Of a DNA stretch of 64,000 nt, positions 3 to 967 are shown piece by piece. Location: positions 1 to 64,000 of the IMG/VR virus record IMGVR_UViG_3300028844_005363; one strand, given 5' to 3'. Numbering within the stretch: the stretch's first letter is position 1; every line of letters starts with the position of its first letter. The stretch is from a virus. The translations under genes were made by a program, and so were the position numbers. The notes below the pieces were generated by a model. That model saw only the letters and a list, made by a program, of their open reading frames with translations, did no database searches and was not told where the DNA came from.

Positions 3-476
3 CAAACTTACAATGATTTGCAAAAAGAATACTTTAAATTAGTTGGTGACATAAACACCGCTAATCTCCAAAACACTATCACTTTAAATGGTGAGAAAGT
101 TAGTTTGGTTGTTGCAATTGAAATGCGTAACAATCTCGAATGGCAGAAAGATTTTGTACGAACCATCCATACTCAGGCTGTGAACATGGAGCGCCGTATC
201 TTAGAATCTAACACTGCTTTAGAAGAAGAGATTCAGCACGTTACTTTACGTAACAAAACAGATTCTATGGCTACAGCTGATGTACTAGAATTAGAAGAGC
301 AAACTCGTAACCGTCTGGAAAAAGCTAATAAAGCTATTATCCATGACCCGTTAAGTATTCGTCTAATGCATGAACGTGAAGCTGCGAAGTATACTGAGTT
401 ATGCGATGAATTGGATACTAAACTTAATATTGCTAATGCTACTATCACTATAGGTGTTGCAGCAGAAGCGAGTTAA
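3..476 (+). CDS. 5'-truncated alpha-helical protein, DIP1984/DUF6847-like
   Basis: Frame is open from the window start (QTYNDLQKEYF...). The pattern I-x-x-A-N...SLxxAIxxR...DP...ELDxxLNIANATITI resembles the DIP1984-like family as I remember it. Confidence 0.6.
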   Translation, partial: QTYNDLQKEYFKLVGDINTANLQNTITLNGEKVSLVVAIEMRNNLEWQKDFVRTIHTQAVNMERRILESNTALEEEIQHVTLRNKTDSMATADVLELEEQTRNRLEKANKAIIHDPLSIRLMHEREAAKYTELCDELDTKLNIANATITIGVAAEAS

Positions 477-603
477 TTTTAGTTGGTTTAATGTTGTGAC
501 GAACATTAAGAAAAGCAGTACCACACTTTACTACCTCAAACCATGTGGCTAAATAAAGGTTAGGAGTACTAATCATTCATTCTGATAAATGAAATGCTAG
601 GGA

Positions 604-672
604 ACTTTCGGTTACATGTTCGATTCATGTATGGGGTGCATACCCCATTAGCTCAATTGGTAGAGCAAAAGT
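604..672 (+). ncRNA. Circularly permuted tRNA-like module (T arm, closed acceptor stem, D arm; YrlA-like topology)
   Basis: ACTTT, CGGTT, T arm ACATG-TTCGATT-CATGT, acceptor ATGGGGT-GCAT-ACCCCAT, TA, D arm GCTC-AATTGGTA-GAGC, A, AAAGT. No anticodon loop and no free CCA end. Confidence 0.88.
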
Positions 673-703
673 CACGCATCGCTTTGAGGGAAGCTTAAAT
701 TCC

Positions 704-788
704 TCGTTAGCTGTCAGCATTTAGATTTGAGATGTTAGATTTGAAATATTAGATATTTTTTCTTCAGATATTTTTGAATAGATATGAG
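704..788 (+). repeat. 7-nt periodic NNNNNAG array inside the ncRNA
   Basis: TCGTTAG CTGTCAG CATTTAG ATTTGAG ATGTTAG ATTTGAA ATATTAG ... TGAATAG ATATGAG. Confidence 0.75.
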
Positions 789-930
789 TTGTCACTAAAT
801 CCTAGACTCAAGTTTACAATGGTTTACTACTTACCAGTTAATGTACTCTAGGCTGTCACACCATTAAACAGGTCTAAGCAATAGACTAAAAACAACCGGC
901 TGGTTCACGATACGAACCACTCAAATTTTG

Positions 931-967
931 TAAGCCATTAGATGTAATTATCTAATGGCTTTTTTTA
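931..967 (+). terminator. Rho-independent terminator
   Basis: AAGCCATTAGAT-gtaatt-ATCTAATGGCTT followed by a T run. Confidence 0.85.

What the first reader, a model, noticed from the sequence alone, without database searches (positions are those of the whole stretch)
604..672. Complete circularly permuted tRNA mimic embedded in the ncRNA
Seen: all elbow elements are present with canonical geometry but in the order T, acceptor, D. ACTTT (604-608) pairs with AAAGT (668-672) as the anticodon-stem equivalent. Variable loop CGGTT is 5 nt. T arm is ACATG-TTCGATT-CATGT. A perfect 7-bp acceptor stem ATGGGGT/ACCCCAT is sealed by a GCAT loop. U8-A9 is followed by D arm GCTC-AATTGGTA-GAGC with the invariant GG. 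The anticodon loop is replaced by the rest of the RNA. Established: bacterial YrlA Y RNAs use this topology and partner with Ro60/Rsr, but no Ro60 gene is visible in this window. Inference: it cannot be charged or decode unless the GCAT loop is opened, so it probably presents a tRNA elbow to host factors (modifying enzymes, RNase P, tRNA-targeting defence nucleases, ribosome).
Basis: partly seen in the sequence, partly recalled or inferred. Interest (0 to 1): 0.88.

Follow-up and report, generated by a model that had tools for sequence, protein, structure and literature searches.

The report
Sealed tRNA look-alike inside phage RNA
A marine N4-like phage that has no tRNA genes carries a perfect tRNA shape with its halves in swapped order, a sealed acceptor end and no anticodon loop, built into a long non-coding RNA that follows a gene of unknown function. 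It belongs to the Y-RNA-like (YrlA) kind of tRNA mimic, but here it has no Ro60 partner.

Summary
Window 604-672 reads T arm, 7-bp acceptor hairpin closed by GCAU, U8-A9, D arm, all on a 5-bp anticodon-stem equivalent. All 21 pairs are Watson-Crick and every classical tertiary nucleotide is present. Re-permuted, ARAGORN calls it a 76-nt tRNA. A covariance model built only from other phages' modules scores it 75 bits (E 2.8e-21); tandem-tRNA junctions reach 50.6 at most.

It belongs to the YrlA structural class. Its closest relatives are stand-alone phage RNAs (L178, Xanthomonas phage XaC1, L190) that share the 5' junction and differ by compensatory stem changes.

The whole 74.8-kb genome has no tRNA gene and no TROVE/Ro60 gene.

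The module lies in a terminator-ended structured RNA directly behind a DUF6847/DIP1984-family gene. That gene is followed by a comparable non-coding tract in 38 other phage loci. One of them carries a normal tRNA-Thr at the equivalent place.

My reading: a selected, non-decoding tRNA-shaped handle, an optional insert in this RNA, probably recognised by host tRNA enzymes (RNase P nick predicted at 641/642). Function is inferred; no expression data exist.

Earlier notes of this scan report the same combination on other DNA. I found no paper describing it.

The parts
3..476 (+). C-terminal 157 codons of a 216-aa DUF6847/DIP1984-family gene; the N-terminus is cut off by the contig start
   Evidence: The full-length protein P0001 is 100% identical and carries a precomputed PF20935 hit. 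My hmmscan of the fragment gives DUF6847 E 4.8e-5 and DIP1984_fam E 1.2e-4, both below the curated cut-offs. A family profile hits PDB 3KDQ with E 5.7e-4.
486..500 (+). 5' arm of the long-range closing helix of the RNA
   Evidence: It is a 15-nt inverted repeat, 93% complementary to 855-869, and it is kept in both the MFE and the centroid fold. Comparable end pairing is seen by eye in L302, L306 and L319.
591..603 (+). Conserved 5' junction (…AAUGCUAGGGA) leading into the module
   Evidence: It aligns with the junctions of the stand-alone mimics L178, XaC1 and L190. It holds a GCUA like the YUAY motif that starts the V loop of YrlA (PMC4201824).
604..608 (+). 3' strand of the anticodon-stem equivalent (ACUUU)
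   Evidence: L178 and XaC1 have the identical stem.
609..613 (+). 5-nt variable loop (CGGUU) with G45, G46 and U48
614..630 (+). T arm: 5-bp stem and UUCGAUU loop
   Evidence: The stem is 100% paired with covariation across 21 modules.
631..648 (+). 7-bp acceptor stem sealed by a GCAU loop; RNase P cut predicted between 641 and 642
   Evidence: The cut site is inferred from M. smegmatis YrlA, whose 7-bp stem is cleaved by RNase P (PMC4201824).
649..667 (+). U8-A9, the D arm (GCUC-AAUUGGUA-GAGC) and A26
668..672 (+). 5' strand of the anticodon-stem equivalent (AAAGU)
686..705 (+). 6-bp hairpin between the module and the repeat tract
704..788 (+). Tract of about 7-nt-periodic units ending in AG
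   Evidence: TRF reports periods 7, 14 and 15. Six in-phase AG occur within 56 nt. Similar CAAAG/NNNNNAG tracts lie in the RNAs behind DUF6847 genes of other phages.
796..805 (+). UAAAUCCUAG motif just after the repeat tract
   Evidence: AAAUCCUUGG-like words lie at the same relative place in L299, L301, L302, L303, L306 and L313. This was seen by eye and not tested statistically.
855..869 (+). 3' arm of the closing helix
932..968 (+). Intrinsic terminator: 13-bp stem plus a U run, ending the gene-plus-RNA unit
   Evidence: The RNAs of the other DUF6847 loci also end in terminators.

Best explanation
Window 604-672 is a real, selectively maintained, YrlA-type circularly permuted tRNA mimic. 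It has a full tRNA elbow (D and T arms with all tertiary contacts), a 7-bp acceptor stem sealed by a tetraloop, and a 5-bp stem in place of the anticodon arm through which it is grafted onto a larger RNA. That larger RNA runs from about 486-869 plus a tail to the terminator at 932-968. It is co-transcribed behind a DUF6847/DIP1984-family gene and belongs, by architecture, to the non-coding tract that follows this gene family in many phages. The tRNA-shaped unit is an optional insert in the 5' domain, just upstream of the heptamer-repeat tract. Most relatives have nothing there and one has a genuine tRNA-Thr. Inferred mechanism: the module cannot decode. It acts as a tRNA-shaped handle for host enzymes that read the elbow and acceptor stem. 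RNase P may nick at 641/642, followed by trimming and CCA addition; TruB-, Dus-, TrmA- and TrmB-type modifiers may also act. This would process and/or stabilise the RNA, or tether its protein complex to the tRNA machinery, independently of Ro60. Shown: the anatomy, the class membership, homologues with covariation, the absence of tRNA and Ro60 genes, and the gene-RNA synteny. Inferred: transcription, processing, protein binding and purpose.
For: Anatomy and statistics. Class: Rfam YrlA aligns to 606-670 at 35.6 bits, E 3.9e-6. TROVE-linked phage YrlAs score 47.7-52.2 bits and TROVE-less stand-alone ones 32.9-44.5 bits, all below the gathering score of 69. Enrichment: of 116 viral hits to a T-loop…D-arm pattern, 15 have a 7/7-paired closed acceptor stem, against 0.12 expected by chance. 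Nineteen of the hits with at least 6/7 pairs overlap no predicted tRNA. Covariation over 21 modules: 92.9% of cells paired against 62.5% in shuffles, and covariation score 0.77 against 0.19 (0 of 500 shuffles reach it). The acceptor helix was selected for pairing; the T and anticodon-equivalent helices were not. Nearest homologues: L178, XaC1 and L190 share the junction and, in the first two, the ACUUU/AAAGU stem, while their T and acceptor stems differ compensatorily. Selection on the permuted unit: the flanks carry no similarity to the missing halves (p = 0.99 and 0.89). Context: P0001 is DUF6847. In 9 of 9 cultured-phage loci and in most of 29 IMG/VR loci, the gene is followed by 385-790 nt without a sizeable ORF; the nine cultured-phage tracts read in full carry periodic AG/AAAG units and most end in a terminator. 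L319 has tRNA-Thr(UGU) between the 5' domain and the repeat tract. No TROVE and no tRNA in the complete genome. Precedent for processing: M. smegmatis YrlA, with a 7-bp acceptor stem, is cut by RNase P and receives CCA, and S. Typhimurium YrlA is modified by TruB and DusA (PMC4201824).
Against: There is no expression, end-mapping or modification data. No near relative of this phage could be fetched, so the module and the rest of the RNA have no lineage-specific covariation test. A sequence profile of the other DUF6847-linked tracts does not hit this RNA, so its family membership rests on synteny and architecture alone. None of 38 other DUF6847 loci has a permuted module in the downstream tract, so the insert is not needed for the core function. 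A 4-nt loop may be too tight for RNase P. The fold of 484-871 is only marginally more stable than shuffles (z = -1.78), although 477-975 gives z = -4.08.
Confidence: 0.55

Rival explanations
1. It is a true Y RNA that works with the host's Ro60/Rsr. The phage supplies only the RNA and hijacks the host Rsr (and PNPase) for RNA degradation or quality control.
For: The module is of the YrlA type. A GACGAA word (498-503) lies near the 5' end of the RNA, and a GCUA lies before the module; both resemble the GNCGAAN0-1G and YUAY motifs of YrlA. Five of 22 viral records with such modules do encode TROVE proteins.
Against: The complete genome has no TROVE gene. YrlA genes lie within 4 kb of Ro60 on the same strand (PMC4201824). 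About 5% of sequenced bacterial genomes have a recognisable Ro60 (same paper), and the host is unknown. The Rfam model aligns only positions 23-85, so the Ro60-binding stem is not matched. GNCGAA is expected about 0.5 times by chance in 500 nt, and the trailing G is missing. The complete phages XaC1 and G066 carry mimics without TROVE.
Confidence: 0.13
2. It is a neutral relic: the junction of a duplicated tRNA gene, or a stand-alone mimic picked up by recombination, that rides in a variable region of the RNA without a function of its own.
For: A permuted tRNA is formally a window on a tandem duplication. L043, an N4-like relative, holds a half-way form in which the 5' half still has a full anticodon arm. 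The insert is absent from 38 other DUF6847 loci. DUF6847 loci usually sit beside tRNA arrays.
Against: All 21 pairs and all tertiary nucleotides are intact, while the presumed outer halves are indistinguishable from random sequence. The genome has no other tRNA sequence to recombine with. Homologues in unrelated phages keep the same permuted unit through compensatory changes.
Confidence: 0.12
3. It is a decoy or sponge. The sealed tRNA body titrates a host tRNA-binding factor, such as a tRNA-targeting defence nuclease or a modification enzyme, to protect or re-tune translation during infection.
For: The elbow and acceptor stem are perfect mimics. The phage has no tRNAs of its own to replace cleaved ones. 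DUF6847 loci in other phages lie beside RNA ligase, peptidyl-tRNA hydrolase and tRNA arrays.
Against: The known anticodon nucleases read the anticodon loop, which is absent, and toxins that act on the acceptor end need a free 3' end, which is sealed (established knowledge). Nothing in the window links it to a defence system.
Confidence: 0.1
4. It is a permuted tRNA gene in the strict sense. The RNA is circularised or spliced so that a working anticodon loop forms, and is then opened at the acceptor end to give a functional tRNA, as in the red alga Cyanidioschyzon merolae.
For: The 7 nt before the module (CUAGGGA) have the form of an anticodon loop (C32, U33, A/G37, A38). The order 3' half, then 5' half, is that of permuted tRNA genes.
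Against: Bacteria have no bulge-helix-bulge splicing enzyme (established knowledge). The flanks match no group I intron model (E up to 10). The same GGGA junction is a family motif in stand-alone mimics that have closing stems. The loop has no encoded CCA. The leader and trailer are about 120 and 200 nt of structured RNA.
Confidence: 0.03

Closest known systems
YrlA, the Y RNA-like tRNA mimic of bacteria and mycobacteriophages (Rfam RF02553; Chen et al. 2014, PMC4201824)
   Same: The order is T arm, closed acceptor-like stem-loop, D arm. The D and T arms are nearly invariant, with the tRNA tertiary nucleotides. The RNA's own ends leave through the anticodon-stem position. There is a YUAY-like word before the module. 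The 7-bp acceptor stem matches the M. smegmatis form, which RNase P cleaves.
   Different: There is no Ro60/TROVE gene in the genome. The Ro60-binding stem of the model is not matched. The score is below Rfam's threshold. The module is a side-domain of an RNA of about 385-490 nt rather than most of an RNA of about 100-130 nt. The neighbouring gene is DUF6847.
Stand-alone permuted tRNA mimics of about 115-135 nt in phage tRNA arrays and intergenic regions (L178, L116/L156/L180, L177, L186, L190, L198, Xanthomonas phage XaC1 328921-328989). They are unannotated, and I found no paper on them.
   Same: They have the same module. L178 and XaC1 have the same ACUUU/AAAGU stem and the same …GGGA junction. 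No TROVE gene was found in 17 of the 22 records searched, most of them incomplete; the complete records G066 and XaC1 also lack one.
   Different: They have a short basal stem closed by their own 5' and 3' ends, with an ACAGCAA word after the 5' strand. They are usually flanked by tRNAs at about -40 and +22 nt. None of the 22 records searched holds a DUF6847 gene, but XaC1 has one 18 kb away.
The non-coding tract behind DUF6847/DIP1984-family genes in phages (Aeromonas LAh_6/8/9, Pseudomonas KIL1-5, 254 and Milchi, Xanthomonas XaC1, Bacillus Bcp1, and IMG/VR loci L308-L336). Uncatalogued.
   Same: A gene of about 205-218 aa is followed directly by 385-790 nt without a sizeable ORF, with periodic units ending in AG, an AAAUCC word after them, paired ends and a terminator. 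L319 carries a tRNA at the slot where the window carries the mimic.
   Different: No significant sequence similarity to the window's RNA. No permuted module in any of them.
Large ornate phage-associated RNAs GOLLD and ROOL (own knowledge: Weinberg et al. 2009 and 2017; some GOLLD RNAs hold a tRNA in a variable region)
   Same: They are large structured phage RNAs found near tRNAs, sometimes with a tRNA embedded.
   Different: No Rfam match at any threshold used. They have no dedicated protein gene, and any embedded tRNA is a normal one.
VIPR systems (Vipr protein plus vrRNA; bioRxiv 10.64898/2026.04.26.720920)
   Same: A phage-encoded protein is paired with an RNA that carries short tandem repeat units.
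   Different: Vipr is a RAMP protein and the units are 5-nt GGY/NN. The paper mentions no tRNA, DUF or helical protein. This is an analogy only.

Membership tests
YrlA (RF02553) | tRNA-like domain in the order T stem-loop, acceptor-like stem-loop, D stem-loop, with the tRNA tertiary nucleotides | tested here: met
YrlA (RF02553) | Encoded within about 4 kb of a Ro60/TROVE gene on the same strand | tested here: not met
   PF05731 finds nothing in the complete 74,757-bp genome, while the controls ring.
YrlA (RF02553) | GNCGAAN0-1G motif near the 5' end (the presumed Ro60 contact) and a basal stem | tested here: inconclusive
   GACGAA lies at 498-503 but lacks the trailing G. About 0.5 such words are expected by chance. 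The Rfam alignment covers only model positions 23-85.
YrlA (RF02553) | Score at or above Rfam's gathering threshold (69 bits) | tested here: not met
   The score is 35.6 bits. TROVE-linked phage YrlAs also fail, at 47.7-52.2 bits, so this test is weak.
YrlA (RF02553) | Bound by Ro60/Rsr; modified by TruB and DusA; cleaved by RNase P when the stem has 7 bp | not testable with these tools
   This needs immunoprecipitation, modification mapping and cleavage assays.
Phage permuted tRNA mimics (model R2, built here) | A full-length match well above the scores of tandem-tRNA junctions | tested here: met
   75 bits with the leave-one-out model. Junctions score 50.6 bits or less.
Phage permuted tRNA mimics (model R2, built here) | Short basal stem made by the RNA's own ends, with an ACAGCAA word after its 5' strand | tested here: not met
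   There is no ACAGCAA, and the module is 118 nt and 183 nt from the closing-helix arms.
DUF6847-linked phage RNA (uncatalogued) | Lies directly behind a DUF6847/DIP1984-family gene on the same strand and ends at a terminator | tested here: met
DUF6847-linked phage RNA (uncatalogued) | Periodic (about 7 nt) units ending in AG, and paired 5' and 3' ends | tested here: met
DUF6847-linked phage RNA (uncatalogued) | Detectable sequence or profile similarity to other members | tested here: not met
   nhmmer profiles of three member sets give no significant hit in 477-991.
tRNA gene | Contiguous cloverleaf with an anticodon loop and a free acceptor end | tested here: not met
   ARAGORN and Rfam tRNA find nothing in the window or the genome.

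The most novel reading that the evidence does not exclude
The DUF6847 protein and its downstream RNA form a Ro60-independent, Y-RNA-like ribonucleoprotein. In this phage the grafted tRNA mimic is the adaptor that couples the particle to the host tRNA-processing or RNA-repair machinery, just as Y RNA couples Ro60 to PNPase. tRNA-shaped adaptors would then be a modular, exchangeable part used by at least two unrelated protein scaffolds.
Probability: 0.22. Interest if true: 0.8.

Novelty: new variant of a known kind. Interest (0 to 1): 0.62.

Why it matters
tRNA-mimicking Y RNAs are known only as partners of Ro60. Here the same mimic is fully intact in a phage with neither Ro60 nor any tRNA gene. 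It is built into the RNA that accompanies a different and wholly uncharacterised protein family, DUF6847/DIP1984, found in many phages including cultured ones (Aeromonas LAh phages, Pseudomonas KIL phages, Xanthomonas XaC1, Bacillus Bcp1). A real tRNA sits at the same slot in a relative. This suggests that what matters is the tRNA shape itself, and it makes the question of what the tRNA module of a Y RNA is for testable in a second, Ro60-free system. It also flags unannotated RNA genes and a mis-named 'tail fiber' gene in public phage records.

Tried and rejected
- **Close relatives.** blastn and nhmmer of the intergenic region against 80 viral relatives found nothing beyond tRNA-arm words. 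Rfam YrlA on 49 records of relatives of the neighbouring ATPase gene (N4-like and other phages), and R1 on 160 loci, returned only tandem-tRNA junctions plus the L043 half-way form. No record is closer than 57% amino-acid identity on the neighbouring ATPase in viral or metagenome contigs.
- **Pattern and protein searches.** An exact-pattern search for the module in viral contigs gave 0 hits. A junction pattern in viral contigs found only L178/L297. In GTDB genomes it gave 24 hits, none of them a permuted module by R2. Searches with the DUF6847 fragment, with P0002 and with alignment A5 in viral contigs found nothing, two partial loci and LAh_8 only.
- **The closest protein relative.** The 4.7-kb contig of P0002, the 53%-identical protein relative, could therefore not be read. 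This was the most wanted comparison.
- **Sequencing runs.** No RNA holder was listed. Laid contigs of two DNA runs were identical to the window or did not cover the RNA.
- **Profile of the DUF6847-linked tracts.** It gave no significant hit in the window.
- **Other Rfam families.** No RAGATH-27, GOLLD, ROOL or group I intron hit at E up to 10 in 450-1000.
- **Natural permuted intron-exon idea.** I considered a tRNA re-joined by flanking group I intron halves. I dropped it: there is no intron signature and no U at a plausible 5' splice site.
- **VIPR.** I read the preprint and rejected VIPR as a relative.
- **DUF7873 and the 'unrecognised Ro60-like protein'.** These leads from earlier notes were not reproduced. 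Two upstream ORFs that I scanned had no such hit.
- **Structure prediction.** AlphaFold on P0001 alone gave an all-helical model with one small hairpin, at mean pLDDT 66.5. That is too weak for a fold search, so I ran none.
- **Papers.** The Burroughs-Aravind 2016 paper and the Sim et al. 2020 review are not held.

Full report
**What is there.** The window is the first 64 kb of a 74,757-bp IMG/VR virus record that CheckV rates complete. It is an N4-like phage. It has a 3,689-aa virion RNA polymerase-sized ORF, portal, major capsid, primase and exonuclease genes. The runs that hold it are marine metagenomes. Between a + strand ORF ending at 476 and an AAA+ ATPase gene starting at 992 lie 515 nt with no + strand ORF of 40 aa or more. 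The tract ends in a strong intrinsic terminator at 932-961 plus a U run.

**The observation.**
- All 21 base pairs are Watson-Crick, and all the classical tertiary partners of a class I tRNA are present.
- ARAGORN and Rfam find no tRNA in the window or the genome.
- When the two halves are put back in tRNA order with any of four 7-nt loops, ARAGORN returns a textbook 76-nt tRNA.
- On its own the segment folds into the permuted cloverleaf.

**Is it more than chance, or a tandem-tRNA junction?**
- Rfam's YrlA model aligns to 606-670 (positions 23-85 of 114) with 35.6 bits, E 3.9e-6. This is below the gathering score of 69.
- That model also lights up on ordinary tandem-tRNA junctions at 22-29 bits in other phages, so I built a stricter test.
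- The pattern TTCGA-N(23-30)-TAGCTCAATTGGTAGAGC hit 116 places in viral contigs. Fifteen have a 7/7-paired closed acceptor stem where 0.12 are expected. Nineteen of the hits with at least 6/7 pairs overlap no predicted tRNA.
- On an alignment of 21 such modules, 92.9% of cells are paired against 62.5% in shuffles, and the covariation score is 0.77 against 0.19. Slid registers fall to 34-43% paired. The acceptor helix was chosen for pairing; the T helix (100% paired) and the anticodon-equivalent helix (74%) were not.
- A model built from the 20 other sequences alone scores the window's module at 75 bits, E 2.8e-21, over its full length. The best tandem-tRNA junctions reach 50.6 bits.
- The sequence where the missing halves of two tandem tRNAs would lie is no more similar to them than shuffled sequence (p = 0.99 and 0.89). 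If the unit arose from a duplication, only the permuted unit has been kept.

**Relatives of the module.**
- Five of 22 viral records with such modules encode a TROVE (Ro60) protein. Their RNAs align to the whole YrlA model at 47.7-52.2 bits. These are phage YrlAs of the published kind (PMC4201824).
- The others are RNAs of about 115-135 nt, usually wedged between tRNA genes at about -40 and +22 nt. They have a basal stem made by their own ends and an ACAGCAA word. They score 32.9-44.5 bits on YrlA.
- The closest to the window are L178, an unannotated RNA of the cultured Xanthomonas phage XaC1 (328921-328989, 58 bits with R2), and L190. All share the junction …GCUA/GGGA. L178 and XaC1 also share the ACUUU/AAAGU stem, while the T and acceptor stems differ by compensatory changes.
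- XaC1 and the 364-kb record G066 are complete and lack TROVE.
- None of the relatives of the neighbouring ATPase gene that I could fetch (at most 57% amino-acid identity, from N4-like and other phages) has the module or the intergenic sequence.

**The context changes the reading.**
- The ORF ending at 476 is cut by the contig start. The full protein (P0001, 216 aa, 100% identical, from a 75,149-bp contig) carries Pfam DUF6847.
- My scans of the fragment give DUF6847 E 4.8e-5 and NCBIfam DIP1984_fam E 1.2e-4, both below the curated cut-offs. A family profile hits PDB 3KDQ at E 5.7e-4.
- tblastn finds homologues in 25 cultured-phage records: Aeromonas LAh_6/8/9 and 4_4572, Pseudomonas KIL1-5, 254 and Milchi, Xanthomonas XaC1, Bacillus Bcp1 and others. 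They are often named 'tail fiber protein' after PHROG 1491.
- In all nine loci I fetched, and in most of 29 IMG/VR loci, the gene is followed on the same strand by 385-790 nt without a sizeable ORF.
- The nine cultured-phage tracts, read in full, hold runs of roughly 7-nt units ending in AG/AAAG and an AAAUCCUUGG-like word after the run. Most end in a terminator, and where I looked the 5' and 3' ends pair.
- The window has the same layout: closing helix 486-500/855-869, periodic tract 704-788, UAAAUCCUAG at 796-805, and the terminator.
- These tracts are linked to each other by sequence. A profile of them does not reach the window's RNA, so its membership rests on synteny with a homologous gene and on architecture.
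- No other DUF6847 locus has a permuted module in its tract. L319, a complete 69.7-kb phage, has an ordinary tRNA-Thr(UGU) exactly between the 5' domain and the repeat tract. That is the slot the mimic occupies here.
- The 22 records with stand-alone mimics hold no DUF6847 gene. XaC1 has both, 18 kb apart.

**How it most likely works.**
- *Shown:* a perfectly preserved tRNA body without an anticodon loop or a free end, homologous to YrlA-type mimics, sitting as an optional insert in a DUF6847-linked RNA, in a genome with no tRNA and no Ro60 gene.
- *Inferred:* the feature shared by the mimic here and the tRNA in L319 is the L-shape read by tRNA enzymes.
- *Precedent:* in M. smegmatis a YrlA with a 7-bp acceptor stem is cut by RNase P and given CCA, and in Salmonella TruB and DusA modify YrlA (PMC4201824).
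- *Prediction:* I therefore expect recognition by host RNase P, with a nick between 641 and 642 that leaves a two-piece RNA held by three helices, and by elbow-reading modifiers. The result would be to process or stabilise the RNA, or to tether its protein complex to the tRNA machinery.
- *Confidence:* I put this at about 0.55. The identity claim alone is about 0.9.

**Rivals.** Use of a host Ro60 (0.13), a neutral relic (0.12), a decoy (0.10) and a true permuted tRNA gene (0.03). They are weighed in their own sections.

**Novelty.** YrlA-type mimics are published only beside Ro60 (PMC4201824; also noted for jumbo phages in PMC7824862). I found no paper that mentions DUF6847, and the only hit for DIP1984 is an unrelated hospital-genomics paper. 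Earlier notes of this scan describe DUF6847-linked RNAs on other DNA, with a tRNA or a back-to-front tRNA inside, and stand-alone phage mimics. I used them as leads and re-derived the points I rely on. I class this as a new variant of a known kind.

**Limits.** There are no RNA data. The host is unknown.

Noticed in passing
L043:4531-4597 (IMG/VR 3300003691_000053, an N4-like relative): T arm, a 7-bp acceptor hairpin closed by a GCAA tetraloop, and a D arm, followed by a complete anticodon arm (UAA) but no second T arm. This is a half-way form between a tandem-tRNA junction and a permuted mimic. Each neighbouring tRNA is preceded by the same GTTACTTCGTA leader.
   Followed up: partly
Xanthomonas phage XaC1, OR258281.1:328921-328989 (L364:1501-1569): An unannotated stand-alone permuted tRNA mimic in a cultured jumbo phage. 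It has a basal stem GGAAUCAA/UUGAUUCC, an ACAGCAA word and the same ACUUU/AAAGU stem as the window. The genome has no TROVE gene.
   Followed up: partly
L177:7022-7304 (- strand): A phage-encoded permuted (two-piece) tmRNA gene (RF04321, 97 bits) in the same tRNA array as a permuted tRNA mimic.
   Followed up: no
L190:1353-1480: A RAGATH-33 RNA (128.6 bits, above threshold) about 220 nt upstream of a stand-alone tRNA mimic in a 149-kb phage contig.
   Followed up: no
window 3-476 and cultured-phage homologues (for example NC_048776.1, NC_030934.1, NC_024137.1): DUF6847/DIP1984-family genes are named 'tail fiber protein' in RefSeq and PHROG 1491. Their neighbours (tRNA arrays, RNA ligase, peptidyl-tRNA hydrolase, a ProQ-like chaperone) and the RNA behind them argue against a tail role.
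   Followed up: partly
window 870-931: Two further hairpins (about 873-889 and 901-917) lie between the closing helix and the terminator. Weak sub-threshold Rfam hits (Qrr, trpB motif) there are driven by the terminator.
   Followed up: no
I did not test whether this means anything.
   Followed up: no
L299/L300:2945-3078 (Aeromonas phages LAh_9 and LAh_8): The tract behind their DUF6847 gene gives a sub-threshold match to the sRNA family STnc100 (about 37 bits, gathering score 47).
   Followed up: no
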